DNA of 64,000 nucleotides from positions 2,106-66,105 of the forward strand of contig JBCCCO010000005.1 of NCBI GenBank assembly GCA_039033475.1, written 5' to 3'. Source of the stretch: Pseudomonadota bacterium (GTDB lineage Bacteria > Pseudomonadota > Alphaproteobacteria > Rhizobiales > CBDHHC01). The translations under genes and the position numbers were made by a program. Below, in pieces: positions 1,892 through 63,507 of the stretch; within the stretch, counting starts at the first letter, position 1, and every line of letters starts with the position of its first letter. The notes beneath the pieces were generated by a model. That model did no database searches. It was not told the origin of the DNA and was given only the letters and a program-made list of their open reading frames with translations.

Positions 1892-1903
1892 GTTCAGTCG
1901 GAT

Positions 1904-1950
1904 TGAGGGGCTTGGTGTTTAAAACGCCTTTTTCTTAATCCTACTGGGAT
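1904..1950. repeat. Hairpin-repeat family locus R0: solo C tail
   Basis: TTGGTGTTTAAAACGCCTTTTTCTTAATCCTACTGGGAT matches the C module found at 7111, 9246, 42303 and other sites. Confidence 0.7.
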
Positions 1951-1965
1951 TACATAAAAACCATG

Positions 1966-7082: not shown

Positions 7083-7227
7083 AGAGATTCCCGCTTTCGC
7101 GGGAATGACAATGGAGAGGTTTGGTATTAAAAATGCGCTTTTCTTAATCCTACCAGGGTTATAAGCTAAAATCTGCATTGTTTATGTGATTAACGTTACA
7201 GAGATCCTAGCTTTCGCTGGGATGACG
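7083..7227. repeat. Hairpin-repeat locus R1: A hairpin + C tail, spacer, then a second A hairpin
   Basis: AGAGATTCCCGCTTTCGCGGGAATGAC plus C occupies 7083-7160. GAGATCCTAGCTTTCGCTGGGATGACG occupies 7201-7227. Confidence 0.9.
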
Positions 7228-9064: not shown

Positions 9065-9314
9065 CTGCAATTTGGGATAGGAAAAAAATGAAAAAATACC
9101 CTAGCCACCCTGCCAGGTATGAGCCAGATCGGTGATTTGTGAAAAAAATCACTGTGTGGCCGAAAAATAGTTCTTTGACCGGGATTCCATTTTTCAATGC
9201 AAGACCGGTATAACCTGTTTGAGATTCCCGCTTTCGCGGGAATGACGGTGGAGAGTTTTGTTTTTTAAAATGCACTTTTCTTATCCATAACCGGGGCTAC
9301 ATTTGTTATTTTTA
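9065..9314. mobile_element. 250-bp insertion or duplication bounded by a 17-bp perfect direct repeat, carrying an A+C hairpin-repeat unit
   Basis: TACATTTGTTATTTTTA occurs at 9048-9064 and again at 9298-9314. The interior contains GAGATTCCCGCTTTCGCGGGAATGAC plus a C tail (9221-9297). Confidence 0.55.
9221..9297. repeat. Hairpin-repeat locus R2: A hairpin + C tail (inside the rsmG/parA insertion)
   Basis: GAGATTCCCGCTTTCGCGGGAATGACGGTGGAGAGTTTTG...CTTTTCTTATCCATAACCGGGG. Confidence 0.9.
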
Positions 9315-11911: not shown

Positions 11912-12172
11912 GGAAATGGATATAGCAAGAATGAACGAAAAGTTAAAGATTGTTTCATGTGAAACAAACACATTAACAAATACTTTCGAAGACTCTGAAA
12001 TGATTCAGAAAGATTCGAGATAGACTCAAAACGACTCTAAATATGATGTTCTAGACTCATTTTTTACTGAAGTGACTTTTAGAGTTATTGGGGGAAAAGG
12101 AAGAGTAATGTTTGTGATTAGTGATTTTTTTTCCTGGTAAAATTCGATGGATGTTTAAAGCACTACTTTTGC

Positions 12173-12309
12173 GCCATACTTGCGAAAGCTGGGATCTTAA
12201 CAAAAAAACTCAGCGAGATCCCAGCTTTCGCTGGGATGACGGAGTGTGTTTCGTGGGAATGACGAACTGAAAGTATCTTAGAATATATAAACCATTCTAA
12301 ATTAGATCC
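12173..12309. repeat. Hairpin-repeat locus R3: degenerate inverted A, A hairpin, half-A + D tail
   Basis: GAGATCCCAGCTTTCGCTGGGATGAC lies at 12215-12240. GGGAATGACGAACTGAAAGTATCTTAGAATATATAAACCATTCTAAATTAGATC runs to 12309. Confidence 0.85.
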
Positions 12310-12316
12310 GCTATAC

Positions 12317-13744
12317 TCATTTGCCAATGCAGAATGAGCTGAAAATCTCGCCAAGTATGTCTTCCACATCAATGCGACCGGTGATACGGCCGATGGCATT
12401 GGCGGCGATGCGCAAATGCTCAACCTGTAATTCAAGCGGCAACTCTTGTGCATTTAAAAATGACTTCAGGGACTCTTTACAAATTTCAAGATGCTCGCGG
12501 TGGCGCGCGCGGGTGATCAGGAGCGCATCTTGTGTTCCAAGAGTGGTTTGTACATGCTGTGAAATATGATCAATCAGATGATTCACACCAAACCCTGTTT
12601 TGGCCGAAATTAATAATGCGTTTTCTACTATGTCTTCGGGATCGCGTTTTTGTAGGTTTTGCTGCACAGTCTTGATGTCTTCTGATGAAAATTGATCAAC
12701 TTTATTGAGTACCAAGCACGTTACAGGTTTGCTTTGTGCAATGCTCTCACTGTCTTGATTTAAGATATGCTCTAGCTCTTTAACAAAAGAGGGGGCGTTG
12801 TTCGTGCTATTACTCACTTGCGCTATATCTTCACACCAGAGGACCAGATTGGCATTTGAGATATAAGATTGCGCGCGGCGGATGCCTTCTTGTTCTATTT
12901 TGTTATGCGCCTCACGAATTCCAGCTGTGTCTGTTATTATTACCGCATATCCGTTGAGATTTAGGTGTACTTCAATGGCATCTCTTGTGGTACCAGCTTC
13001 TTCAGAGACAATTGCAGCTTGCCTTTGGGATAGCACATTCAACAGGGTGGATTTGCCGGCGTTTGGTGGTCCAGCAATGACAATACGAAAGCCATCACGC
13101 ATGATTTCTCCACGGTGATTGTCTTGCAAATGCTCTTTTATTGACTTGTTGGACTCTTTAATCTGTTGATAGGCTTGACTTGCCACGCTTTGCGGAACAT
13201 CTTCTTCATCGGAAAAGTCTAATTCTGCTTCAATATAAGCTAATCCTGTTATTATCGTATTGCGCCAGCTTTCATATAATATTCCTAACGCCCCTGTTGA
13301 TTGTTGCAATGCTTGGCGTCGCTGGCTTTCGGTTTGAGCATTGATTAGATCTGCCAGCCCTTCGATTTGGGTTAAATCCATTTTGCCGTTTAGAAATGCG
13401 CGGCGGGAAAACTCTCCTGGTTCTGCCAACCGCAAGCCTTGACAGCAGCTTAGCGCCTCTAAGACACTCTCAATTACAGCTTTGCCACCGTGAATGTGAA
13501 ATTCGCACACGTGTTCTCCGGTAAAACTGCTCGGGGCCGGAAAGCTTATCACAAGGGCATGGTCAAGGTGCTCCCTTGTTATGGGATGGGTTAGGGTGCG
13601 AAGGCTCGCCTGCCGTGGCCTAGGTGTTGTGCCCGCTATTTCATTAAGTGTGCGCTCAACACCCGGCCCTGAGATACGGATGATAGCAACGCCTGCCCGG
13701 CCTGGCGCTGTTGAAAGGGCATATATGGTCTCTTGATCTGACAT
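12317..13744 (-). CDS. mnmE: tRNA modification GTPase MnmE (TrmE/ThdF)
   Basis: The ORF is 475 aa with G1 motif GPPNAGKST and the characteristic C-terminal FCIGK. Confidence 0.95.
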   Translation of the reverse strand: MSDQETIYALSTAPGRAGVAIIRISGPGVERTLNEIAGTTPRPRQASLRTLTHPITREHLDHALVISFPAPSSFTGEHVCEFHIHGGKAVIESVLEALSCCQGLRLAEPGEFSRRAFLNGKMDLTQIEGLADLINAQTESQRRQALQQSTGALGILYESWRNTIITGLAYIEAELDFSDEEDVPQSVASQAYQQIKESNKSIKEHLQDNHRGEIMRDGFRIVIAGPPNAGKSTLLNVLSQRQAAIVSEEAGTTRDAIEVHLNLNGYAVIITDTAGIREAHNKIEQEGIRRAQSYISNANLVLWCEDIAQVSNSTNNAPSFVKELEHILNQDSESIAQSKPVTCLVLNKVDQFSSEDIKTVQQNLQKRDPEDIVENALLISAKTGFGVNHLIDHISQHVQTTLGTQDALLITRARHREHLEICKESLKSFLNAQELPLELQVEHLRIAANAIGRITGRIDVEDILGEIFSSFCIGK

Positions 13745-13760: not shown

Positions 13761-13824
13761 CTTTAGCTGGAATGATGAGTTGAAAGTATCTTGATAAAAA
13801 TAAACCATTTAAAAATTAGATCAG
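13761..13824. repeat. Hairpin-repeat locus R4a: half-A + D tail
   Basis: GCTGGAATGATGAGTTGAAAGTATCTTGATAAAAATAAACCATTTAAAAATTAGATCAG. Confidence 0.8.
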
Positions 13825-13896
13825 ATGTTGTTTTAAAATAAGATAATTGTAACTTACCTGGAAAATAAAGATATAAAATTATGCTATGTCCACATA

Positions 13897-13923
13897 GGTC
13901 CCCGCTTTCGCGGGAATGAAGGC
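13897..13923. repeat. Hairpin-repeat locus R4b: solo A hairpin
   Basis: GGTCCCCGCTTTCGCGGGAATGAAGG lies immediately upstream of the thioredoxin-domain ORF. Confidence 0.8.
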
Positions 13924-18114: not shown

Positions 18115-18212
18115 TTAGCACATCTATTGTTTTAAATATTTTGTTTTTTATTTGCATATAAAACTGACCACTGTGATCCCAGCGATAAGTCAGGATTCTT
18201 TTTGAAACTCTT

Positions 18213-18292
18213 GGGATTCCAGTTTTTGCTGGAATGATGAGCCTAGAGTATCTTAATAAAAGTGAATTATTTTTTTAAATCGAAACTGCTGT
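18213..18292. repeat. Hairpin-repeat locus R5: A variant + degenerate D tail
   Basis: GGGATTCCAGTTTTTGCTGGAATGATGAGCCTAGAGTATCTTAATAAAAGTG... Confidence 0.75.
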
Positions 18293-21497: not shown

Positions 21498-22553
21498 TTA
21501 GGAACTCTGACGAATGCGTTTGACCAATTGTTCGACATGGGAGATTGGGGTTTGAGGTAAGATGCCGTGGCCGAGGTTGAAGATAAACGGGCCGTTTGAA
21601 AGGTTTTGCAAAATTTCGTCAATGCGTTTGTCGAGAGCTTGACCGCCTGAAACGAGGAGTAAGGGGTCGAGATTACCTTGTACGGCAACCCTATTTTGCA
21701 GGCGGCTTTGGATGAATGTGAGCGGGAGTGCAGTGTCGCAGCTCACTGCGTTAACTTTGGTCATGGCTACAAATTCTGGATACTTTGGGCCAATGCCTTT
21801 TGGAAAACCGATGACGGGGATGTTTGGGTGACGTGCTTTGAGTTGGCTGACAATTTGTTCGGTTGATTTGATAACCCATTTTCTGAATTCGTCATCGGGG
21901 AGATTGCCAGCCCAACTGTCAAAAATTTGGATCGCATTTGCGCCTGCTTTGATTTGGCCAGAGAGGTAATCAACTGAGGTGAATACCAAGATTTCGATGA
22001 GTTTTTTGAATAGTTTGGGTTTTTGATAGGCGAACAGTCTGGTGGTGGCTTGATCAGGTGATCCTTTGCCACCGATCATGTATGTGGCAACAGTCCATGG
22101 CGCACCGCAAAAACCGATGAGCGCGGTTTCTTTGGGTAGGTTTTCGCGTATTAGGCTAACGCTTTCGTAGATTAAATCAAATTTTGGTTTGGTTTTTTCT
22201 GGTTTTAGGGCGGTGATGTCTTTTTGGGTTTCCAGGGGGGTTAGTTTGGGGCCCTCTCCTGGGATGAAGGAGACGGTTTGTCCAAGGGCGTCTGGAACAA
22301 CGAGGATGTCTGAAAATAGAATTGCAGCATCAAAGCCAAAGCGTTTGATCGGTTGTAGGGTGACTTCGCATGCGAGTTTTGGATTGTAGCACAGGTCAAG
22401 GAAGGAGCCTGCTTGCTCACGGGTTTTAAGATATTCTGGTAGGTAACGGCCAGCCTGGCGCATCAACCAAATGGGTGGAGGAAATACACTTTCGTGCTCG
22501 AGAACTTTGAGAAAGAATGACTTTGAGGTGTTTTGCGATGAGCGCGTTTTCAA
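21498..22553 (-). CDS. hemE: Uroporphyrinogen decarboxylase
   Basis: The ORF is 351 aa with PPIWLMRQAGRYLPEY. It appears to use a TTG start. Confidence 0.95.
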   Translation of the reverse strand: MKTRSSQNTSKSFFLKVLEHESVFPPPIWLMRQAGRYLPEYLKTREQAGSFLDLCYNPKLACEVTLQPIKRFGFDAAILFSDILVVPDALGQTVSFIPGEGPKLTPLETQKDITALKPEKTKPKFDLIYESVSLIRENLPKETALIGFCGAPWTVATYMIGGKGSPDQATTRLFAYQKPKLFKKLIEILVFTSVDYLSGQIKAGANAIQIFDSWAGNLPDDEFRKWVIKSTEQIVSQLKARHPNIPVIGFPKGIGPKYPEFVAMTKVNAVSCDTALPLTFIQSRLQNRVAVQGNLDPLLLVSGGQALDKRIDEILQNLSNGPFIFNLGHGILPQTPISHVEQLVKRIRQSS

Positions 22554-22979
22554 AGATTAATCCCTATAAAAAATATAATTTAAAATTTTAAAGATTTCTT
22601 TTTCTTTTATTAGGCTATGGATATTGAATATTAATTTTTAAGACAGGATTTTCCACAGTTTGCCCCATGTGAAAAAAGTAAAGTCTATATCTATAGGTTT
22701 CTTTGTTTATAGCTACTAGATATGAGAAAAACATATTCGCGATCAACGTATTAATCAATGGCCTGGCTATAAAAATATGGTATTTTTTTTGTTTACGAGC
22801 TTTTGATAACTTTTAATAAGATGTGTTTTAGGATTTAATAGGGATAAGTCTAAATTTTTTTGCACAGGCTTAAATATGTGTACATCTTAGAGGATAAAAA
22901 TTTAGGACATGGGAGTAATTTTCGTCAGTATAGATATTGATGCGATATATGGTGATGTTATGCATGGGTTATACCCATA
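22554..22979. other. Candidate chromosomal replication origin (oriC) in the hemE / DUF299 intergenic region
   Basis: The gap is 426 bp, AT-rich and non-coding, at the position of Cori in Caulobacter and of the hemE-linked origins in Rickettsia and Rhizobiales. It contains one DnaA-box-like TTTTCCACA (22649-22657). Gene orientation diverges here. Confidence 0.5.
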
Positions 22980-30211: not shown

Positions 30212-30354
30212 TAAGCCCAGTTATGGATAAGGGAAAAAAATACCTCCGTCATTCCAGCCAGAAAATAGTTATTTTGTTTTAGATTCCAGCTTTCACTGGA
30301 ATGACAAACGGAGTTTATCTTGATAAAATCAAACCATTTAAAAGTTGGATCAGT
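30212..30354. repeat. Hairpin-repeat locus R6: inverted C, half inverted A, spacer, A hairpin, D tail
   Basis: TAAGCCCAGTTATGGATAAGGG...CCGTCATTCCAGCC is followed by AGATTCCAGCTTTCACTGGAATGAC (30281-30305) and then D. Confidence 0.85.
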
Positions 30355-30394
30355 TATATTTACGGATGGTGTTTTATTACAATTTTTGTGAAAA

Positions 30395-31072
30395 ATGAGT
30401 AGACCTTCTAAAGAAAAAGATTCCAAACAAAAGCAAGATCTTAGTGCTCTTAATTCTGAAGATGCGAAGGTTTGGGAGCGTTTTGCGTCTTCTGTTGACC
30501 CGCTTCGAAATCAAGATACTCCGTCACCATCTAAGACCTCTCAAAGTGTTTCTGCTCAAGATCAAAAGTCAGAGTTTGCGCAGTTGTTATCGGAGGAGCA
30601 TTCGGGGGTAAATCGGGCTGTTGTTAAAGATAATAAAGACGTTCCTGTGAAAGTGGATGTTTCTCGAAAAAAGCCCCAAAAACCAAAACCTATTCCTGAA
30701 TTGACGTCTTTTAATACCAAGGATTATCGCAAGGTTGGGCGGCAACAGCATGAGATTGATGCCACTTTGGACTTACATGGGTATCGTCAAGATCAGGCTT
30801 ATACCAAGCTCAAAAGGTTTTTAGTACATGCGCAAACTATCGGTGCGCGTTATGTTTTGGTGATTACTGGAAAAGGGCGGCAGAAGTCTTCTTATGAGGA
30901 TGATGATCTCTATCTGCAAAGTTCATCGCAATATGGTGTGCTGCGCCAAGCTGTTCCGCAATGGTTACAAGAAGATGAGTTTCGCAAATGTGTTGTTGGT
31001 TTCGCACCCGCTCATGGCCATAATGGAGGGGAGGGGGCGCTTTATGTCCATATCAGGAAGAAGAAAGCGTGA
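30395..31072 (+). CDS. Smr-domain protein
   Basis: The ORF is 225 aa with a low-complexity N-terminus and a C-terminal Smr domain (LDLHG....A, VITGKG). Confidence 0.8.
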   Translation: MSRPSKEKDSKQKQDLSALNSEDAKVWERFASSVDPLRNQDTPSPSKTSQSVSAQDQKSEFAQLLSEEHSGVNRAVVKDNKDVPVKVDVSRKKPQKPKPIPELTSFNTKDYRKVGRQQHEIDATLDLHGYRQDQAYTKLKRFLVHAQTIGARYVLVITGKGRQKSSYEDDDLYLQSSSQYGVLRQAVPQWLQEDEFRKCVVGFAPAHGHNGGEGALYVHIRKKKA

Positions 31073-31098
31073 TTGCGTTTGGTTATAAAAAACTATAG

Positions 31099-31242
31099 CT
31101 GGTTCAACCTAAAATGGTTTATTTTTATCAAGATGCTCTCAATTTGTCATTCCAGCGAAAGCTGGAATCTTTAAATATCAGTATGTTGCAAGTTCCAGAG
31201 ATCCCGGCTCGCGTGCATTAGATGCACTTGGCCGGGATGACG
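31099..31242. repeat. Hairpin-repeat locus R7 (inverted): D, A, spacer, B extended hairpin
   Basis: GTCATTCCAGCGAAAGCTGGAATCT lies at 31146-31170. CCAGAGATCCCGGCTCGCGTGCATTAGATGCACTTGGCCGGGATGACG lies at 31195-31242. Confidence 0.9.
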
Positions 31243-33400: not shown

Positions 33401-33994
33401 ATGCGCACTGCTGATATATCGCGAAAAACTCAAGAAACCAACATTCAAGTGTCTGTGAATTTAGATGGTTCCGGGCAATATACGGTTGATACCGGTATTG
33501 GTTTCTTTGATCATATGTTGGAGCAACTTGCTCGCCATTCCCTTATTGATATCACTGTTAAAGCAGTGGGAGATTTGCATATTGATATGCATCATACGGT
33601 TGAGGATGTGGGCATTGCGCTGGGCCAAGCGTTTGATAAAGCCTTAGGTGATAAAAAGGGGATTACCCGTTATGCTTCAGCATATTTGCCGATGGATGAG
33701 GCTCTAACGCGGTTGAGTTTGGATGTATCGGGTCGGCCTTATCTGGTCTGGCATGTTGCATTTTCGCAAGGCAAAATTGGTGAGATGGATACCGAGTTGT
33801 TTCGTGAGTGGTTTCATGCTTTTGCGCAAAATGCTTATCTTACATTGCATGTTGAGACGCTTTATGGTGAAAATAACCATCACATTGCAGAGAGCTGTTT
33901 TAAGGCATTAGCGCGTTCCCTTAAAAGTGCTATTGCTGTCGATGAACGGCAGAAAAATAAGATTCCATCGACCAAGGGTCGATTGGGTGCGTAG
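33401..33994 (+). CDS. hisB: Imidazoleglycerol-phosphate dehydratase
   Basis: The ORF is 197 aa with the [11 protein letters not shown] and HH..E motifs. Confidence 0.95.
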
Positions 33995-34004
33995 GTTTTA
34001 GGTT

Positions 34005-34514
34005 ATGACAAGTTATACCATTTTTCAGCCTCCGGTTCCGGCGCTTGACTCCGTTTCGCGTTCTGATGAACTTGTGTTTGTTAAAGAGGGATTTTCTTGG
34101 GCTGCTTTTTTGATCCCCCTGATTTGGCTGGTGTATCACAGAGTATGGATTGGGCTGGGGCTCATGCTTGCCATAAGTATTGTTATCAATGTTATTTTTG
34201 AATCGCTTCGTAGTCCTGAGATTTATGCAACTTTGGCTTTTTTGGCGATCTCGCTTATTGTTGCCTTTGAAGGCAATGCTATGCGCCGGTGGCAGTTAAG
34301 CCGTAGAGATTATCGTTTGATCGGTGTTGTATCTGGACGTAATTTGAGCGAGTGTGAAGAGATTTTCTTTCGGATACATGGTGATGAAATTCTTGCTGAG
34401 CCTGCTGATTCCAGCCAAGACATGGGCCAAACGCTTTCCTTGCCTTTAATGCCCGGTTCTTCTTCTAAACCTTCGTCGTTGCATGATGAGCAAATCAAGA
34501 CTTCCTGGATATGA
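34005..34514 (+). CDS. DUF2628-like small membrane protein embedded in the his operon
   Basis: The ORF is 169 aa with two TM segments. Its stop overlaps the hisH ATG (ATGA). Confidence 0.6.
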
Positions 34515-35161
34515 GTGTTGTTATTATTGATTATGGGTCTGGTAATTTGCACTCAGCGCTAAAGGCGTTTGAGCGCGCCGCATCAGATGCAGGTTTGCAG
34601 ACTTCAATCCAGCTTACAACACGCCCTGAAGATGTGCTTGGTGCTGATCGGGTGGTGTTGCCAGGTGTTGGTGCTTTTGCAGATTGTCGTGCTGGTTTGG
34701 AAAATATACCCGGTATGCTCGATGCCTTGGATGAGGCTGTGCGGGTTCAAGCCAAGCCTTTTTTAGGGATATGTGTTGGGATGCAATTAATGGCCCAGCG
34801 CGGTCTGGAGCATGGGCAATGGGATGGTTTTGGCTGGATTGATGGGGAAGTAAGAGCGATTGAACCTTGCGATCCTGATTTGAAGATTCCGCATATGGGC
34901 TGGAATACACTTGATGTTGTCTCTAAACATGAAGTATTGCAGGGCCTTGCAACCGGTGCGCGGGGTCTGCATGGGTATTTTGTGCATTCGTATCATTTTC
35001 GTGCTACAGAGCCTGATGTGGTTGTGGCCGAGGCGGATTATGGTGGGCCTGTAACGGCTATCGTGGCAAAAGAAAATATGATTGGAACTCAGTTTCATCC
35101 AGAAAAAAGCCAGCAGCTTGGGTCGCACTTGATTGAGAATTTTTTGCGCTGGGCGCCATAA
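34511..35161 (+). CDS. hisH: Imidazole glycerol phosphate synthase, glutaminase subunit
   Basis: The ORF is 216 aa with LPGVGAF, GICVGMQ and a C-terminal FHPEKS. Confidence 0.95.
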
Positions 35162-35179
35162 AAAACGAAGTGATTGAAG

Positions 35180-35917
35180 ATGATTTTATTTCCTGCAATT
35201 GATCTTAAAGATGGCCAGTGTGTTCGGCTCAAGCTGGGTGACATGGAGCAGGCCACAGTGTTTCATGATGACCCGGTGGAACAAGCCCGTCATTTTCAAG
35301 CGCAAGGGTTTAAATATTTGCATATTGTAGATTTGAACGGTGCGTTTGCGGGCAAACCTGTTCATGGAGATGTTGTTGAGAATATTGTTAGCGCTCTTTC
35401 AATACCAGCCCAATTGGGCGGCGGTATTCGGGATTTCGAGACCATTGAGATGTGGCTGGCAAAAGGGGTAGCGCGGGTTATTCTTGGCACTGTTGCGGTG
35501 CGTGATCCAGAACTGGTACGCCGGGCGTGCCAAGCTTTTCCTGGGCAGATTGCCGTTGGTATTGATGCTAAAGGCGGATACGTTGCTGTTGAGGGCTGGG
35601 CTGAGACTTCTGAATTAAGCGCGATTGAGTTGGCAAAGCGTTTTGAAGATGCTGGGGTGTCGGCTCTGATTTATACAGATATTGACCGGGATGGTGTGCT
35701 TAAAGGTTTAAATATAGACGCAACCTTGGCACTCGCCCATAGTGTTTCTATTCCTGTGATTGCTTCGGGGGGATTGGCTTCTATTGATGATGTGAAACGG
35801 TTGCTAGAGCCAGATTGTGCGATTTTAGAGGGAGCTATTTCAGGCCGGGCGCTTTATGATGGGCGGCTTGATGCTGGGGAAGCGTTGGCGTTGATTGAAG
35901 GTTCTCGTGGCTTATAA
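35180..35917 (+). CDS. hisA: ProFAR isomerase
   Basis: N-terminus [15 protein letters not shown] at 35180 is preferred to the TTG at 35174. Confidence 0.95.
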
Positions 35918-35920
35918 GAT

Positions 35921-36075
35921 AACCTTAAGTAGGATTAGGGAAATTGCATTTTATATATCAAAACGTGCCACCGTCATTCCCGCGCAAGCGGGAATCTCGG
36001 AAAAGTTGCAATGAGATCCCAGCTTTCGCTGGGATGACGAGGTATTTCATATTTTTCTCATCCATAACTGGGCTT
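35921..36075. repeat. Hairpin-repeat locus R8 between hisA and hisF: inverted C + inverted A, spacer, A + C (overall palindromic doublet)
   Basis: GTCATTCCCGCGCAAGCGGGAATCTC lies at 35973-35998. GAGATCCCAGCTTTCGCTGGGATGACG lies at 36013-36039. Confidence 0.9.
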
Positions 36076-36086
36076 CATATCATATT

Positions 36087-36869
36087 ATGCTAAAAATACG
36101 TGTGATCCCATGTCTTGATGTGAAAGATGGCCGTGTGGTCAAAGGGGTTAATTTTGTTGATTTGATTGATGCGGGTGATCCGGTTGAAGCGGCTATTGCT
36201 TATGATGCTGCGGGGGCTGATGAGCTTTGTTTTTTAGATATAACAGCCAGTCATGAAAACCGTGATACGATTTTTGATGTGGTACAACGTACGGCTGAGC
36301 ATTGTTTTATGCCGCTTACGGTTGGGGGCGGTGTGCGCACCACAGATGATATTCGAAAATTATTGGAAGCTGGTGCTGATAAAGTTTCAATGAATACAGC
36401 AGCGGTTCAAAGACGGGAATTTGTGCGTGAAGGTGCTGAAAAGTTCGGGGCGCAATGTATTGTGGTTGCGATTGATGCAAAACGAGTTTCTGATGAGGGG
36501 CAAGAACCGAAGTGGGAGATTTTTACCCATGGTGGGCGTAAGCCAACTGGTCTTGATGCGATTGAATATGCAAGAGAAGTGGTTGGACTTGGGGCTGGTG
36601 AGATATTATTAACCTCTATGGATCGTGATGGCACGCGTGCTGGGTTTGATTTGCAATTAACACGTGCTATTGGTGATGCTGTGAGTGTGCCTGTGATTGC
36701 TTCTGGCGGTGTTGGCACTCTTGATCATTTGGTTGATGGTGTATTGCATGGCAAGGCAAATGCGGTTTTGGCGGCCTCTATCTTTCATTTTGGCGATTAC
36801 ACCATTGGTCAGGCCAAGCAGCATATGGCACAACAGGGCATTCCAGTGCGATTAGATGGATTGAGTTAG
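36087..36869 (+). CDS. hisF: Imidazole glycerol phosphate synthase, cyclase subunit
   Basis: The ORF is 260 aa with [16 protein letters not shown]. Confidence 0.96.
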
Positions 36870-36875
36870 CTTTTC

Positions 36876-37199
36876 ATGGATCTTGATATTTTACAAAAAC
36901 TTGTACGCATTATTGATGATCGCAAAGAGGCTACTGAGGATGTATCTTACACAAAGCAGTTGCTAAATGCAGGACCTGAAAGGTGTGCTAAAAAGCTAGG
37001 TGAAGAGGCTGTTGAAACCGTTATTGCTCTCGTTGCCCAAGATGATGATGCACTAAAAGCTGAAGCGGCTGATTTGCTGTATCATTTGTTGGTGGCTCTG
37101 GCATGTCGCAATATTGCTCTAGAGGATGTGCTTGGCCTTCTAGAGCAGCGCATGGGTGTTTCGGGACTGGATGAAAAAGCTGCGCGAACACGTGGTTAA
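36876..37199 (+). CDS. hisE: Phosphoribosyl-ATP pyrophosphatase
   Basis: The ORF is 107 aa with SYTxxLL..G......KLGEEA.E. Confidence 0.9.
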   Translation: MDLDILQKLVRIIDDRKEATEDVSYTKQLLNAGPERCAKKLGEEAVETVIALVAQDDDALKAEAADLLYHLLVALACRNIALEDVLGLLEQRMGVSGLDEKAARTRG

Positions 37200-38835: not shown

Positions 38836-38957
38836 AAAATCACCCAGAGATCCCCGCTTTCGCGGAGATGAAGATGGGTGATTTTTTGAGATTCCCGCTT
38901 TCGCGGGAATGACCAACCGAGAGTATCTTAAAATATAAATCATGTTGGATTGGATCT
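38836..38957. repeat. Hairpin-repeat locus R9: extended hairpin (outer 10-bp stem around an A-type core, then a T-run), A hairpin, D tail
   Basis: AAATCACCCA (38837-46) pairs with TGGGTGATTT (38875-84) around GAGATCCCCGCTTTCGCGGAGATGAAG. GAGATTCCCGCTTTCGCGGGAATGAC lies at 38888-38913. Confidence 0.85.
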
Positions 38958-42127: not shown

Positions 42128-42204
42128 GTTGATGTCTAACCCGATTTAGAAGATATTTTAAAAGGTATGTTGTTCTATGAAAATTCATAAAACAAAAGCC
42201 CCTC

Positions 42205-42355
42205 ATCATCCCGGCCAAGTGCATGCAATGCACGTGAGCAAAGGATCTCTGAAACGTAAAACTATTGATAACCAAAGAGATTCCAGCTTTCGCTGGAATG
42301 ACGGTGGCGCGTTTTGGTGTTTAAAATATACTTTTTCTTATTCATAATTGGGATT
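42205..42355. repeat. Hairpin-repeat locus R10: B extended hairpin, spacer, A hairpin, C tail
   Basis: ATCATCCCGGCCAAGTGCATGCAATGCACGTGAGCAAAGGATCTCTG ... AGAGATTCCAGCTTTCGCTGGAATGAC ... GGTGTTTAAAATATACTTTTTCTTATTCATAATTGGGATT. Confidence 0.9.
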
Positions 42356-44045: not shown

Positions 44046-44195
44046 CAGTTATGTATCAAGAAACAATCAACACCCCTCTTGTCATCCTAGCGAAAGCTGA
44101 GATCTCTTTGCGATTTTTTTTAGATTCCCACTTTCGCGGGAATGACGGCGGCGCGTTTTGAGGTGTAAAATGCACTTTTCTTACTCAATTAAGTG
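44046..44195. repeat. Hairpin-repeat locus R11: degenerate inverted C, inverted A, spacer, A hairpin, C tail
   Basis: GTCATCCTAGCGAAAGCTGAGATCTC lies at 44081-44106. TAGATTCCCACTTTCGCGGGAATGAC lies at 44121-44146. Confidence 0.85.
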
Positions 44196-44216
44196 AAATT
44201 GCTAAAGTAGCATAGC

Positions 44217-46072: not shown

Positions 46073-46250
46073 CCTTAGTGGATTTAAGAAAAAAGACGAA
46101 ATACCCTTGTCATCCGCGAGAAAGCGGAGATTTCCTTTTTCAAGGTAACACCTTAATCAATTACTCACAGATTCCAGCTTTTGCTGGAATGACAGTGGAG
46201 AGTTTGGGTGTTGAGAATGCAATTTCCTTAATCTTATTGGATTTTTACGT
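46073..46250. repeat. Hairpin-repeat locus R12: inverted C, inverted A variant, spacer, A hairpin, C tail; overlaps the 3' end of the PAP2 ORF
   Basis: GTCATCCGCGAGAAAGCGGAGATTTCC lies at 46109-46135. CAGATTCCAGCTTTTGCTGGAATGAC lies at 46168-46193. Confidence 0.85.
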
Positions 46251-47032
46251 TTTAGAAGCAATTGCAGTCTTGCTTTTGTATATCTTATTACACGGTTTAG
46301 CTGGATATGAATAGGGCCTTTGTGGGCGAATGTGGTTGCATATCTTACAAAGACCAGCCAATGCAAGGCAGATACAACCAAAGCCATAATAATACCGGAA
46401 AACAGAACGTCGCTTAGAAAGTGTCCGCCTTGTAAGATACGCACTGCACCTGATGCCATTCCGGCTAAGATGCCGTAAAAAATTAGGTTTTGGGCGTGCA
46501 GTGGAAATATTAATGCGAGTGCAAAAAAGCCAACAAAAATCATGGCGGCTTCACCGCTGATAAATGAACAATTTCTTTGGCATTGATCTGAGACTTGCAT
46601 AACAGGTGTGAATTTTTGCTGGCCGTCAAATTGTTGGATGTAGTGAGGTCTGGCTCTGCCCCAATTGTCTTTGAGAAGTGTATTGGCGACAAGGCCAGGG
46701 CCGATGATGAGGCATAGCGTTAAGAACATCCATTTAGGGAAGGTTAAATTGAAAACAGAGTTTTTACTGTGTGTACAGATGTACAGACTAATGAGAACGC
46801 CAATGCAAAGGGTTGTGAAAAACAGTTGGAACAAGAAGCGTAAGATGGGGCCGATTTGCCAGATATCGAATAAGAACGTACGTTGGCCATGATAAAAGAG
46901 GGCGGATACAGCAATGTCAAGATTGGGAAAACTGACAAAAATAAATGCGCATGCAAGCCCTGTAGCGCACGCCAGATTGATGAGTTTTTGACGTACAGTA
47001 TGCTGTTTTGCCAATGCCTGGTTATGTTGCAT
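46157..47032 (-). CDS. PAP2-family membrane phosphatase (LpxE/LpxF-like); the C-terminal tail is encoded by repeat sequence
   Basis: The ORF is 291 aa and multi-TM, with the PAP2 motifs SFISGEA and GGHFLSDV. Its last 31 codons or so (46157-46250) lie inside repeat locus R12. Confidence 0.75.
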   Translation of the reverse strand: MQHNQALAKQHTVRQKLINLACATGLACAFIFVSFPNLDIAVSALFYHGQRTFLFDIWQIGPILRFLFQLFFTTLCIGVLISLYICTHSKNSVFNLTFPKWMFLTLCLIIGPGLVANTLLKDNWGRARPHYIQQFDGQQKFTPVMQVSDQCQRNCSFISGEAAMIFVGFFALALIFPLHAQNLIFYGILAGMASGAVRILQGGHFLSDVLFSGIIMALVVSALHWLVFVRYATTFAHKGPIHIQLNRVIRYTKARLQLLLKRKNPIRLRKLHSQHPNSPLSFQQKLESVSN

Positions 47033-60943: not shown

Positions 60944-61113
60944 AACCCCAGTAGGATCAAGAAAGTTGTATTTTAAACACCAAAACGCGCCACCGTCATC
61001 CCGGCCAAGCGCATATAAAGCGCGCTAGCCGGGATCTCTGGAACTTTCAACATACTGATATTTAAGAGATTCCCGCTTTCGCGGGAATGACGGTGGATAG
61101 TTTTATGCTTTCG
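60944..61113. repeat. Hairpin-repeat locus R13: inverted C, B extended hairpin, spacer, A hairpin, truncated C
   Basis: GTCATCCCGGCCAAGCGCATATAAAGCGCGCTAGCCGGGATCTCTGG lies at 60995-61041. AGAGATTCCCGCTTTCGCGGGAATGAC lies at 61065-61091. Confidence 0.9.
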
Positions 61114-63340: not shown

Positions 63341-63507
63341 TTAACAAAACAAAAGTAACTCGTCATCCCGGCAAAGTGCATGAAATGCACGCGAGCTAAG
63401 GATCTCTGGAACGTGCAACGCATTTATATTTAATGAAATTCCCGCTTTCGCGGGAATGACGAACTGAGAGTATCTTGATAAAAATAAACTATTCAATACT
63501 CGATCAG
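63341..63507. repeat. Hairpin-repeat locus R14 inside the metal ABC operon: B extended hairpin, spacer, A hairpin, D tail
   Basis: GTCATCCCGGCAAAGTGCATGAAATGCACGCGAGCTAAGGATCTCTGG lies at 63362-63408. GAAATTCCCGCTTTCGCGGGAATGAC lies at 63435-63460, and D runs to 63507. Confidence 0.9.

What the first reader, a model, noticed from the sequence alone, without database searches (positions are those of the whole stretch)
7087..7227. Compensatory substitutions and G-T wobble in the hairpin stems imply selection on structure
Across copies the stem changes in pairs. ATTCCCGC/GCGGGAAT occurs at 7087, 9225, 38891, 61068 and 63438. ATCCCAGC/GCTGGGAT occurs at 12218 and 36016. ATTCCAGC/GCTGGAAT occurs at 31149, 42279 and 46171. 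Both T:A to C:G and G:C to A:T changes are compensated on the opposite arm. The copy at 7204-7223 (ATCCTAGC/GCTGGGAT) pairs fully only if a G-T (G-U) wobble is allowed. The inner stem of module B also covaries: GTGCAT/ATGCAC at 42219, 63377 and 31214 versus AGCGC/GCGCT at 61008. The loop stays TTTC/GAAA. This pattern indicates that the folded form (ssDNA or RNA) is the selected unit rather than the primary sequence.
Basis: seen in the sequence. Interest (0 to 1): 0.55.

Follow-up and report, generated by a model that had tools for sequence, protein, structure and literature searches.

The report
Known CGTC/NTS-type hairpin repeat family
These hairpins are copies of a widespread bacterial repeat that is already described (CGTC-tagged REP, also called NTS/SRM, the single-strand-DNA target of the small nuclease Ssn); the paired stem changes are real, but this is an ordinary new member of a known family.

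Summary
The window carries about 26 intergenic copies of one hairpin, (C/T)GTC-ATTCCCGC-GAAA-GCGGGAAT-CTC. The stem comes in three compensated types, with T:A/C:G at pair 3 and C:G/A:T at pair 6 (Fisher p 3e-4 and 1e-5). In 120 loci from many phyla, pairs 3 and 6 take all four Watson-Crick forms and stay paired in 119/120 and 115/120 units. The other six pairs, the loop and the unpaired CGTC tag are nearly invariant. So both structure and sequence are constrained.

The element is already described. It is the CGTC-1 REP family (Di Nocera 2013). It is also the dRS3/NTS/SRM motif that the GIY-YIG nuclease Ssn binds and cuts only as single-stranded DNA, on the CGTC strand, and not as RNA (Chenal 2025). 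Eight units match the published SRM pattern exactly, against 0.1 expected.

The G-T wobble argument fails. On the CGTC strand that copy has a C·A mismatch, and wobble and A·C mismatches are equally common. Nine of the 20 canonical units carry uncompensated mismatches.

No ssn gene, transposase or RAYT lies in the window, so the Ssn link for this genome is inferred. Verdict: a new member of a known kind, of low interest.

The parts
7084..7109 (-). Canonical unit with a perfect stem, ATTCCCGC/GCGGGAAT. The strand given is the one that reads (T)GTC-stem-GAAA-stem-CTC.
   Evidence: exact SRM match; DNA fold -9 kcal/mol, z -4.2
7110..7161 (.). Module M1, a ~52-nt repeat that abuts the tag side of the unit. 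Other copies start at 1902, 9248, 42304, 44148 and 46195.
   Evidence: families D1/D6; about 62% pairwise identity, against 90% for the unit cores
7201..7226 (-). Unit with one transition in the stem. It reads as T.G on the + strand and as C.A on the CGTC strand. This is the 'wobble' copy.
   Evidence: (fold -5.0 on + and -3.6 on -)
9221..9246 (-). Canonical unit with a perfect stem, followed by module M1 (9248-9298).
12173..12198 (+). Degenerate unit with 3 non-paired stem positions. It is the left half of an HH dimer with 12215.
12215..12240 (-). Canonical unit with stem type ATCCCAGC/GCTGGGAT, perfect.
12249..12264 (-). Half-unit (loop, 3' arm and tag, with no 5' arm) stacked 8 nt after the tag of unit 12215. 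Module M2 follows.
   Evidence: (D5)
13762..13777 (-). Half or degenerate unit, followed by module M2.
   Evidence: (D4/D5)
13895..13920 (-). Unit with 2 non-Watson-Crick positions and tag GAAG. It sits in a divergent intergenic region.
18172..18199 (+). Degenerate unit (5-nt loop, mismatched 3' arm). It is the left half of an HH dimer with 18213.
18213..18238 (-). Unit of stem type ATTCCAG(T)/GCTGGAAT with loop TTTT and one wobble, followed by module M2.
30246..30261 (+). Half-unit (CGTC tag and 5' arm only). It is the left half of a dimer with 30280.
30280..30305 (-). Unit of type ATTCCAGC with one A.C mismatch at the closing pair, followed by module M2.
31146..31171 (+). Canonical unit of type ATTCCAGC, perfect. 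It is part of the inverted copy of the B-A composite.
31198..31242 (-). Module-B unit. The outer stem is ATCCCGGC/GCCGGGAT and is intact. The 22-nt loop holds a nested hairpin, GTGCAT-TAG-ATGCAC.
   Evidence: (-13.7 kcal/mol, z -5.4)
35973..35998 (+). Canonical unit with loop GCAA. It is one mismatch from the Neisseria NTS consensus. It forms an HH dimer with 36013, between hisA and hisF.
36013..36038 (-). Canonical unit of type ATCCCAGC, perfect.
38847..38872 (-). Unit with one C.A mismatch and tag GAAG. It lies in tandem with 38888.
38888..38913 (-). Canonical unit, perfect, followed by module M2.
42204..42249 (+). Module-B unit. The tag is CATC and the outer 3' arm is degenerate (GCAAAGGAT). 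The nested hairpin GTGCAT-GCA-ATGCAC is intact.
   Evidence: (D7)
42277..42302 (-). Canonical unit of type ATTCCAGC, perfect. It is the partner of B at 42204 and is followed by module M1.
44081..44106 (+). Degenerate unit with 2 non-Watson-Crick positions. It is the left half of an HH dimer with 44121.
44121..44146 (-). Unit ATTCCCAC/GCGGGAAT with one A.C mismatch, followed by module M1.
46109..46134 (+). Degenerate unit with 3 non-Watson-Crick positions. It is the left half of an HH dimer with 46168.
46168..46193 (-). Canonical unit of type ATTCCAGC with loop TTTT, perfect. It overlaps the last codons of the PAP2-family ORF 46157-47032(-) and is followed by module M1.
60994..61038 (+). Module-B unit with an intact outer stem, ATCCCGGC/GCCGGGAT. 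The 22-nt loop holds the nested stem AGCGC/GCGCT.
   Evidence: D7; -14.8 kcal/mol, z -4.4
61066..61091 (-). Canonical unit, perfect. It is the partner of B at 60994, and 60994-61091 forms a ~100-nt HH heterodimer.
63361..63406 (+). Module-B unit. The outer 3' arm is degenerate (GCTAAGGAT). The nested hairpin GTGCAT-GAA-ATGCAC is intact.
   Evidence: (D7)
63435..63460 (-). Canonical unit, perfect (tail GAA instead of GAG). It is the partner of B at 63361 and is followed by module M2.

Best explanation
The hairpins belong to the CGTC-tagged REP family CGTC-1 (Di Nocera et al. 2013). This is the same element as Neisseria dRS3/NTS and the wider 'Ssn-related motif' (SRM) of Chenal et al. 2025. Here it populates the intergenic regions of an uncultured alphaproteobacterium related to Hyphomicrobiales. 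It occurs mostly as head-to-head dimers interleaved with other short repeat modules, a mosaic like the Neisseria NIMEs.

Proposed mechanism. When the DNA is single-stranded, the strand reading CGTC-ATTCCCGC-GAAA-GCGGGAAT-C folds into an 8-bp hairpin. A small single-domain GIY-YIG nuclease (Ssn, cd10448) recognises the helix, specific bases in it, the C just 3' of the stem and the GTC just 5' of it. It then nicks a few nucleotides upstream.

Because binding needs a formed helix, only copies with complementary arms remain recognisable. That is why the stem types differ by compensated double changes. Because the protein also reads bases, six of the eight pairs, the tag and the tail hardly vary. 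Pairs 3 and 6 are read only as 'paired'.

The few perfect sequence types, each present in several identical copies, look like recently amplified or homogenised masters. The many unique, uncompensated variants are decaying copies.

What is shown here: the family identity, the covariation, and the sequence constraint. What is taken from the literature: ssDNA-only, strand-specific recognition by Ssn. What is inferred: that this genome encodes an Ssn, and that Ssn (or an ssn-carrying element) drives the spread and maintenance of the units.
For: Family identity:
- The units have an 8-bp stem starting A-T, T-A, a 4-nt loop and an unpaired 3-nt tail. The tag is CGTC in 9 of the 20 canonical units and TGTC in 6. 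This is the CGTC-1 definition (PMC3733652).
- 10 tag-outward (HH) dimers are present. All units are intergenic or at 3' gene ends.
- 8 units match the published SRM pattern exactly, against 0.1 in shuffles. 7 units are within 3 mismatches of the Neisseria NTS consensus, and 35972-35999 is within 1.
- The host is alphaproteobacterial: its MnmG is 73% identical to Methyloligellaceae, Methyloceanibacter and Hyphomicrobiaceae proteins. Alphaproteobacteria are the class in which CGTC repeats predominate.

Structure constraint:
- In the window, 92% of cells are paired, 2 pairs covary and 0 of 500 shuffles reach the score. Fisher p is 2.6e-4 and 1.1e-5.
- A pattern that left pairs 3, 5 and 6 free found more than 120 loci in many phyla.
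- Pair 6 reads CG 82, AT 25, GC 21, TA 19, with only 5 of 152 non-Watson-Crick. Pair 3 reads TA 103, CG 41, GC 4, AT 2.
- With one unit per locus, pair 3 is Watson-Crick in 119/120 and pair 6 in 115/120, far above every one of 10,000 shuffles.

Sequence constraint:
- Pairs 1, 2, 4, 5, 7 and 8 are nearly invariant, even in units that were not selected on them.
- Unit cores are 81-90% identical between copies, against about 61% for the adjoining modules.

The ssDNA/Ssn link:
- SsnA binds and cuts the NTS only as ssDNA and only on the CGTC strand. It does not act on RNA or dsDNA. Loop identity is dispensable and loop extensions are tolerated. The C after the palindrome and the 3 nt before it are critical. 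A hairpin-preserving change of sequence kills activity (PMC11893778).
- In my 120 loci, ascertained only by the repeat, 3 small GIY-YIG ORFs (PF01541, E 1e-15 to 1e-18) each lie within 100 bp of flanking units.
- The unit's flanks are asymmetric, GAG on one side and GAC on the other. This fits recognition of one strand rather than of a symmetric duplex site.
Against: - No ssn/GIY-YIG gene is present in the 64-kb window. The best six-frame hit to an Ssn profile has E 0.9, a motif regex found nothing, and Pfam annotation of all long ORFs shows housekeeping genes only. The rest of the MAG could not be reached.
- Chenal et al. tested only Neisseria and Wolbachia enzymes. The role of Ssn in other bacteria, and whether it spreads the repeats at all, is unknown.
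- 45% of the canonical units here carry uncompensated mismatches, so any constraint on individual copies is weak.
- Within the window the covariation needs only two ancestral double substitutions inherited by subfamilies.
- No excess of G.T over A.C mismatches on either strand marks a particular folded strand.
Confidence: 0.62

Rival explanations
1. The units act as RNA. They are transcribed in 3' UTRs or between genes of an operon, and they fold into hairpins (with a GNRA loop, GAAA, on the CGTC strand) that stabilise upstream mRNA, terminate transcription or tune expression. Stem covariation would then reflect selection on RNA structure.
For: - Most units lie 20-90 nt downstream of stop codons, between unidirectional or convergent genes. 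Only 1 of 15 repeat-bearing intergenic regions is divergent.
- One dimer sits inside the his operon, between hisA and hisF, and so must be transcribed.
- The loop on the CGTC strand is GAAA or GCAA, which is GNRA type.
- Di Nocera et al. argued for this reading from location and G-T pairs.
Against: - No Rfam family matches.
- No unit is terminator-like, because none has a T-run.
- G.U-compatible mismatches are not favoured over A.C on either strand: 5 vs 6 in the window and 10 vs 18 across taxa.
- Unit orientation does not follow the direction of transcription. The same orientation is found next to + genes and next to - genes, and dimers present both orientations.
- Near-invariance of six stem pairs and of the unpaired tags across phyla with 27-73% GC is not expected of a generic stabiliser hairpin.
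- The only biochemistry available shows that the cognate protein ignores RNA.
Confidence: 0.15
2. The covariation carries no functional meaning here. A few palindromic master copies were amplified in the past and the copies are now decaying relics. Palindromy is restored mutationally, by intrastrand template switching or gene conversion between arms or copies, rather than by selection.
For: - Only three or four compensated stem types exist in the window, each in 2-6 identical copies. Every unique variant is uncompensated.
- 2 of 4 module-B outer stems are broken.
- Di Nocera et al. raised the possibility that CGTC families are heading for extinction.
Against: - Across about 115 species, pairs 3 and 6 take all four Watson-Crick forms with 1-4% mismatches, while the neighbouring pairs stay fixed. 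Mutational symmetrisation would not hold six pairs, the loop and two unpaired tags constant across phyla.
- Unit cores are much better conserved than the adjoining modules.
- A dedicated protein that needs the hairpin is known.
Confidence: 0.1
3. The units are double-stranded target (att) sites for a site-specific recombinase or an IS110/Piv-type transposase. Neisseria dRS3 plays this role for the filamentous Nf/MDA prophages. The palindrome would then be kept because it is a recombination site.
For: - dRS3 is reported as the target of a specific phage recombinase (cited in PMC11893778).
- 7 units satisfy ATTCCC-N8-GGGAAT.
- Stacked half-units beside 15% of units across phyla could be scars of insertion and excision.
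Against: - The window holds no recombinase, transposase, prophage or IS.
- A duplex half-site model predicts fixed bases, not freely covarying pairs.
- The flanking tags are asymmetric.
Confidence: 0.07
4. The units are classical REP/REPIN elements mobilised by a RAYT (an IS200/IS605-type Y1 transposase).
For: The general architecture is shared: short tagged hairpins, inverted dimers 15-40 nt apart, an intergenic location, and mosaics with other modules.
Against: - The tag is CGTC/TGTC, not GTAG.
- There is no RAYT or any HUH transposase in the window.
- Di Nocera et al. found no tyrosine transposase gene flanked by CGTC units in any species.
- In the loci gathered here, the gene flanked by units is a GIY-YIG nuclease.
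Confidence: 0.04

Closest known systems
CGTC-1 REP family (Di Nocera, De Gregorio & Rocco 2013, BMC Genomics 14:522; PMC3733652)
   Same: Both have the unpaired CGTC/TGTC tag, an 8-bp stem beginning A-T, T-A, a 4-nt loop and a 3-nt unpaired tail. Both show mostly tag-outward (HH) dimers, an intergenic location near 3' gene ends, subfamilies with complementary stem changes, no linked transposase, and a predominance in Alphaproteobacteria.
   Different: The tail here is CTC rather than the commoner CCA. The dimers here are heterodimers, including a partner with a 22-nt structured loop, whereas CGTC-1 is mostly homodimeric. The host is an undescribed low-GC (42.5%) MAG.
NTS / Ssn-related motif (SRM) with the GIY-YIG ssDNA nuclease SsnA (Chenal et al. 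2025, Nat Commun 16:2388; PMC11893778)
   Same: The window consensus CGTCATTCCCGCGAAAGCGGGAATCTC differs from the NTS consensus CGTCATTCCCGCGMAVGCGGGAATCYRG only in the last bases. Eight units match the SRM search pattern exactly. The positions critical for SsnA (GTC before the stem, C after it) are the conserved ones here.
   Different: No ssn gene was seen in the 64 kb examined. No biochemistry exists for this lineage. Nothing is known about natural transformation, the process that SsnA modulates in Neisseria, in this organism.
Neisseria dRS3 repeats and NIMEs (Neisseria intergenic mosaic elements)
   Same: Both have the ATTCCC-N8-GGGAAT core, and in both the hairpin units alternate with other 50-150-nt repeat modules in intergenic mosaics (here M1, M2 and the B-spacer-A composite).
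   Different: The organism belongs to a different class. The loop is GAAA instead of GCAG/GMAV. The accompanying modules are unrelated, and no DUS or Nf-type prophage is present.
GTAG-tagged REPs / REPINs with RAYT transposases; E. coli BIMEs
   Same: These are also short tagged extragenic palindromes in inverted doublets, recognised as folded single-stranded DNA by a dedicated small nuclease or transposase whose gene is flanked by the repeats.
   Different: The tag differs (GTAG) and the enzyme is of a different superfamily (HUH Y1 transposase rather than GIY-YIG). There is no sequence similarity.

Membership tests
CGTC-1 REP (Di Nocera 2013) | Unpaired CGTC tag (variants TGTC, CCTC) at one end of the hairpin | tested here: met
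   Of the 20 canonical units, 9 have CGTC, 6 TGTC and 1 GGTC; 4 are degenerate.
CGTC-1 REP (Di Nocera 2013) | 8-bp stem with complementary A-T and T-A at positions 1 and 2, and a 4-nt loop | tested here: met
   Position 1 is A:T in 19/20 units and position 2 is T:A in 20/20. The loop is 4 nt in all 20: TTTC in 17, TTTT in 2 and TTGC in 1. Four further units have a 22-nt loop. Loop-length variants are also reported for CGTC-1.
CGTC-1 REP (Di Nocera 2013) | Short unpaired 3-nt tail (mostly CCA) | tested here: met
   A conserved 3-nt tail is present, but it is CTC (GAG on the opposite strand) rather than CCA.
CGTC-1 REP (Di Nocera 2013) | Intergenic, mostly between unidirectional or convergent genes; HH dimers predominant; no linked transposase | tested here: met
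   The 15 repeat-bearing intergenic regions are 12 unidirectional, 2 convergent and 1 divergent. There are 10 HH dimers. No transposase lies in the window.
NTS/SRM-Ssn system (Chenal 2025) | Sequence fits the SRM search pattern HGTCWYN(0-2)YYVSBRHN(0-5)WNVSBRGN(0-2)RNCYNB, enriched over shuffles | tested here: met
   8 exact matches against a mean of 0.1 (maximum 1) in 50 dinucleotide shuffles. 7 units are within 3 mismatches of the strict NTS.
NTS/SRM-Ssn system (Chenal 2025) | Conservation of the bases critical for SsnA: GTC 5' of the stem and C immediately 3' of it | tested here: met
   In alignment A1, the G of GAC is invariant and the A is at least 90% conserved. The C after the stem (G3 on the opposite strand) is present in 18/20 units.
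NTS/SRM-Ssn system (Chenal 2025) | A cd10448-type single-domain GIY-YIG gene (ssn) in the same genome, often flanked by the motif | tested here: inconclusive
   None is present in the 64-kb window. In 3 of 120 other loci found through the repeat alone, such a gene is flanked by units.
NTS/SRM-Ssn system (Chenal 2025) | Binding and cleavage by Ssn only as ssDNA, on the CGTC strand | not testable with these tools
   This needs protein and oligonucleotide assays. Only the predicted DNA folding was checked.
Neisseria dRS3 / NIME | ATTCCC-N8-GGGAAT palindrome flanking other repeat modules in intergenic mosaics | tested here: met
   7 units fit the dRS3 pattern. Modules M1, M2 and the B-spacer-A composite alternate with units. 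The host is not a Neisseria, so this is the same kind of mosaic and not the Neisseria element itself.
GTAG REP / REPIN with RAYT | GTAG tag and a RAYT (Y1 HUH transposase) gene flanked by the repeats | tested here: not met
   The tag is CGTC/TGTC. No HUH or RAYT gene lies in the window.
Intrinsic (Rho-independent) terminator | GC-rich hairpin followed directly by a T-run | tested here: not met
   None of the units between 6.5 and 19 kb is called terminator-like. On the two strands the stems are followed by GACGG... and by CTC....
Any curated RNA family (Rfam 15) | Covariance-model match at the gathering score | tested here: not met
   Only one tRNA is found in the window.

The most novel reading that the evidence does not exclude
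The data contain two features that neither of the two papers appears to describe, in the passages I read.

1. In about 15% of units across many phyla (32/211, including 12249-12264 here), one to three 'half-units' (arm plus tag, with no partner arm) are stacked 7-10 nt beyond the tag. This is the side on which Ssn nicks.
2. In this window, well-kept canonical units place the cleavable CGTC strand on the leading-strand template 14:2. Their partners with the opposite polarity are mostly degenerate.

The novel reading combines these. The half-unit stacks would be footprints of an Ssn-initiated nick-and-copy process that creates and spreads the repeats. That would be the long-missing mobilisation mechanism of CGTC REPs. 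The host would tolerate intact units only where the cleavable strand is not exposed on the lagging-strand template.
Probability: 0.12. Interest if true: 0.6.

Novelty: new member of a known kind. Interest (0 to 1): 0.2.

Why it matters
For annotation, these roughly 26 features and their modules should be labelled CGTC-1 REP / SRM (NTS-like) repeats. They should not be labelled novel structured RNAs or RAYT REPs. About one unit per 2.5 kb suggests a repeat-rich genome, of the kind Chenal et al. found enriched among symbionts.

The cross-phylum tabulation made here may be modestly useful. It predicts which base pairs Ssn reads by identity (pairs 1, 2, 4, 5, 7 and 8) and which it reads only as a helix (pairs 3 and 6). 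This could guide substrate design for Ssn-based ssDNA tools.

Beyond that, the finding repeats an observation published in 2013 (complementary stem changes in REP subfamilies), and its mechanistic basis was largely supplied in 2025.

Tried and rejected
1. Strand-specific wobble tolerance as a test for a folded RNA or a particular DNA strand. G.T versus A.C counts were 5 vs 6 in the window and 10 vs 18 across taxa, not significant. I dropped it as evidence either way.
2. Orientation of units relative to local GC skew across 120 loci. The counts were 96 vs 82 (p 0.33). Singletons with |skew|>0.03 gave 25 vs 13, not significant. The strong in-window bias therefore does not generalise with this crude measure.
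3. Search for ssn in the window by regex, a custom HMM and Pfam: nothing found.
4. Two metagenome scans with lineage-specific repeats (the module-B core and the M2 core), meant to reach more of this lineage and perhaps its ssn. The first gave 0 hits. The second gave 4 chance hits with no CGTC units.
5. Exact-protein look-ups to get the MAG record. Only short Logan contigs of run SRR22824269 came back.
6. Rfam and a terminator scan: neither gave any support for a known RNA family or an intrinsic terminator.
7. My initial guess from memory was a low-GC Neisseriaceae, because of the dRS3 core. MnmG homology rejected this and points to Alphaproteobacteria.
8. DnaA-box search for an origin next to hemE: no enrichment.
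9. I ran no further search on fishing for this organism's ssn, because hits cannot be tied to a genome.
Full report
**What is there.** The sequence at 7087-7106 is ATTCCCGC-TTTC-GCGGGAAT, flanked by GAG and GAC. Read on the other strand it is (C/T)GTC-ATTCCCGC-GAAA-GCGGGAAT-CTC. The exact palindrome occurs six times in the window, against none in 100 shuffles. A search allowing up to 7 mismatches to the 26-mer finds 20 units, all outside or at the very end of long ORFs.

Reading the repeat-bearing intergenic regions adds more:
- one degenerate unit and three half-units;
- four 'module B' units, which are the same CGTC-tagged hairpin (outer stem ATCCCGGC/GCCGGGAT) with a 22-nt loop that holds a nested hairpin.

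Ten pairs of units form inverted dimers with the tags outward. Four of these are copies of one ~100-nt composite (B unit, conserved 27-nt spacer, canonical unit), three in one orientation and one inverted. On the tag side the units abut one of two ~52-nt repeat modules, M1 or M2.

**Is the covariation real?** In the window the stem has three perfect types (ATTCCCGC, ATTCCAGC, ATCCCAGC), plus ATCCCGGC in module B. The types differ at pair 3 (T:A or C:G) and pair 6 (C:G or A:T).

On the 20-unit alignment, 92% of cells are paired, two pairs change on both sides, and no shuffle of 500 reaches the observed covariation. Fisher tests give p=2.6e-4 for pair 3 and p=1.1e-5 for pair 6. These numbers treat copies as independent, although two ancestral double substitutions would be enough to produce the pattern. 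Nine of the 20 units carry uncompensated mismatches, and two module-B outer stems are broken.

The pattern, AGATNCNNGCTTTCGCNNGNATGAC, leaves pairs 3, 5 and 6 unconstrained. About four matches would be expected by chance in 596 Gb by my estimate. The loci come from Alphaproteobacteria, Gammaproteobacteria, Dehalococcoidia, Bacteroidota, candidate-phyla-radiation lineages and others, with 27-73% GC.

In those loci:
- Pair 6 is C:G 82, A:T 25, G:C 21 and T:A 19, with 5 of 152 not Watson-Crick.
- Pair 3 is T:A 103, C:G 41, G:C 4 and A:T 2.
- Taking one unit per locus, pair 3 is paired in 119/120 (shuffle maximum 83) and pair 6 in 115/120 (shuffle maximum 65).

That criterion is not met, so the helix is under constraint.

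**The primary sequence is constrained as well.** In units not selected on those positions, pairs 1, 2, 4, 5, 7 and 8 are nearly invariant, as are the loop and the unpaired tags. In the window, the 26-nt cores are 81-90% identical between copies, while the adjoining modules are about 61% identical. 'Structure rather than sequence' is therefore wrong. The correct reading is structure and sequence together.

**The wobble.** Unit 7201 has T.G on the + strand, which is C.A on the CGTC strand. It folds at -5.0 and -3.6 kcal/mol respectively, against -9 for unit 7084. Mismatches that would be wobbles on the TTTC strand and on the CGTC strand are equally common: 5 vs 6 in the window and 10 vs 18 across taxa. 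The copy is a single transition in a decaying unit. It is not evidence for RNA-type pairing.

**What the element is.** Two papers already describe it.

Di Nocera et al. 2013 (PMC3733652) defined CGTC-tagged REPs. Their family CGTC-1 has:
- an 8-bp stem beginning A-T, T-A, a 4-nt loop and a 3-nt tail;
- predominantly tag-outward (HH) dimers;
- a predominance in Alphaproteobacteria;
- no associated transposase.

They list the Neisseria elements of the intergenic mosaics as CGTC-1. They also note subfamilies with 'alternative complementary stem residues' and frequent G-T pairs, from which they too inferred an RNA role.

Chenal et al. 2025 (PMC11893778) showed that the Neisseria dRS3 core is part of a 28-nt oriented motif, NTS (CGTCATTCCCGCGMAVGCGGGAATCYRG). 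Related motifs (SRM) occur in many phyla next to a small GIY-YIG gene, ssnA. Their biochemistry shows that:
- SsnA binds and cuts the motif only as single-stranded DNA and only on the CGTC strand; it does not act on dsDNA or RNA;
- the loop is dispensable and can be extended;
- the C after the stem and the three bases before it are critical;
- changing the palindrome while keeping the hairpin abolishes activity.

The window's consensus differs from NTS only in the last bases. Eight units match the SRM search pattern exactly, against 0.1 expected, and unit 35972-35999 is one mismatch from the strict NTS. MnmG of the window is 73% identical to proteins of Methyloligellaceae, Methyloceanibacter and Hyphomicrobiaceae. 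The only identical entry is an NCBI MAG labelled 'Pseudomonadota bacterium'. The host is thus an uncultured alphaproteobacterium.

**The link to Ssn.** The window contains only housekeeping genes: leuS, holA, parAB, rsmG, mnmG, mnmE, rho, hemE, a his operon, polA and others. It has no GIY-YIG gene, transposase, RAYT, IS110-type gene or integrase. I could not reach other contigs of this organism.

In the 120 loci collected through the repeat alone (871 kb), three small GIY-YIG ORFs are present. Each lies within 100 bp of flanking units. This independently reproduces the published NTS-ssn-NTS arrangement. For this genome, however, the Ssn link remains an inference.

**How it most likely works.** On single-stranded DNA the CGTC strand folds into the hairpin. 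Ssn reads the helix, specific bases in it and the two unpaired tags, and nicks just upstream.

Complementarity is needed for recognition, so successful sequence types differ by compensated changes. Only pairs 3 and 6 are free to change in this way. A few perfect types exist in several identical copies, and every unique variant is uncompensated. This pattern fits amplification or homogenisation of competent masters followed by decay.

Whether the host gains anything is unknown for this organism. In Neisseria, SsnA restricts transformation by NTS-bearing DNA.

**Rivals.**
- An RNA role fits the location of the units and the GNRA-type loop. It gets no support from Rfam, from terminator features, from mismatch spectra or from orientation.
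- A purely neutral history does not explain six fixed pairs and fixed tags across phyla.
- A duplex recombinase site predicts fixed bases, not covariation.
- RAYT mobilisation fails on both the tag and the enzyme.

**Verdict.** The element is a new member of a family that is already known and now mechanistically explained. Interest is low.

Two side observations may be worth a specialist's look. The first is the stacked half-units on the nicking side of 15% of units across phyla. The second is a 14:2 polarity bias of intact units relative to the G-rich strand in this window, which a crude cross-taxon test did not reproduce.

Noticed in passing
window 12249-12264 and 13762-13777; loci L018, L041, L059, L063, L020, L107 and others (positions): In 32 of 211 units from many phyla, one to three half-units (end of the 3' arm plus the GAC tag, with no 5' arm) are stacked 7-10 nt beyond the tag, often as 16-20-nt tandem repeats. 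37 units have an extra arm-plus-tag copy on the tag side, against 10 on the tail side. The tag side is where SsnA is reported to nick. The cause is unknown.
   Followed up: partly
window 60994-61091, 63361-63460, 42204-42302, 31146-31242 (inverted): Four copies of a ~100-nt composite. Each has a CGTC unit whose loop is expanded to 22 nt with a nested hairpin, a conserved 27-nt spacer (TGGAAC...ATATTTAA) and a canonical unit in inverse orientation. The outer stem of the expanded unit is broken in two of the four copies, while the nested hairpin is intact in all four.
   Followed up: partly
whole window (units listed; skew): Well-preserved canonical units (at most 1 non-Watson-Crick pair) have their CGTC strand on the - strand 14 times and on the + strand twice. 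The + strand is G- and T-rich throughout, i.e. the leading strand. In dimers, the partner with CGTC on the + strand is usually the degenerate one. A cross-taxon test against local GC skew showed no bias (96 vs 82).
   Followed up: partly
window 1902-1952, 7111-7161, 9248-9298, 42304-42355, 44148-44199, 46195-46246 (M1); 12264, 13777, 18241, 30306, 38914, 63461 (M2 starts): Two families of ~52-nt repeat modules abut the tag side of the units, about 61% identical among copies. The M1 copy at 1902 has no intact unit next to it. The same module occurs with different stem types and the same stem type with different modules, giving a NIME-like mosaic.
   Followed up: partly
window 35973-36038: A tag-outward dimer lies between two His_biosynth-family genes (35174-35917 and 36087-36869, presumably hisA and hisF), inside what looks like a his operon (33401-37199). 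It is presumably transcribed through and does not terminate transcription.
   Followed up: no
window 46157-46193: Unit 46168-46193 overlaps the last ~12 codons of the PAP2-family ORF 46157-47032(-). The repeat may supply the C-terminal residues and the stop codon of that gene.
   Followed up: no
window 30246-31242: A Smr-domain (nicking-endonuclease family) gene at 30395-31072 is flanked on both sides by units, at 30246/30280 and at 31146/31198. This mimics the repeat-gene-repeat layout reported for ssn. It is probably coincidental, because many genes here are flanked in this way.
   Followed up: no
window 22554-22979: An AT-rich 426-bp intergenic region lies next to hemE (21498-22553, -). In many Alphaproteobacteria this is the position of the replication origin (from my own knowledge). 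Here, however, GC skew does not change sign and DnaA-box-like sites are not enriched.
   Followed up: partly
locus L057 5790-5886: In an Ignavibacterium album MAG, complete units form a tandem array with a 36-nt period and identical 11-nt spacers (AGAGAAAAAAT). The array is CRISPR-like in spacing but has no variable spacers.
   Followed up: no
window 12163-12453 (-): This 96-aa ORF runs through the repeat cluster 12173-12316 and has no Pfam match. It is almost certainly an artefact of the repeats and not a gene.
   Followed up: partly
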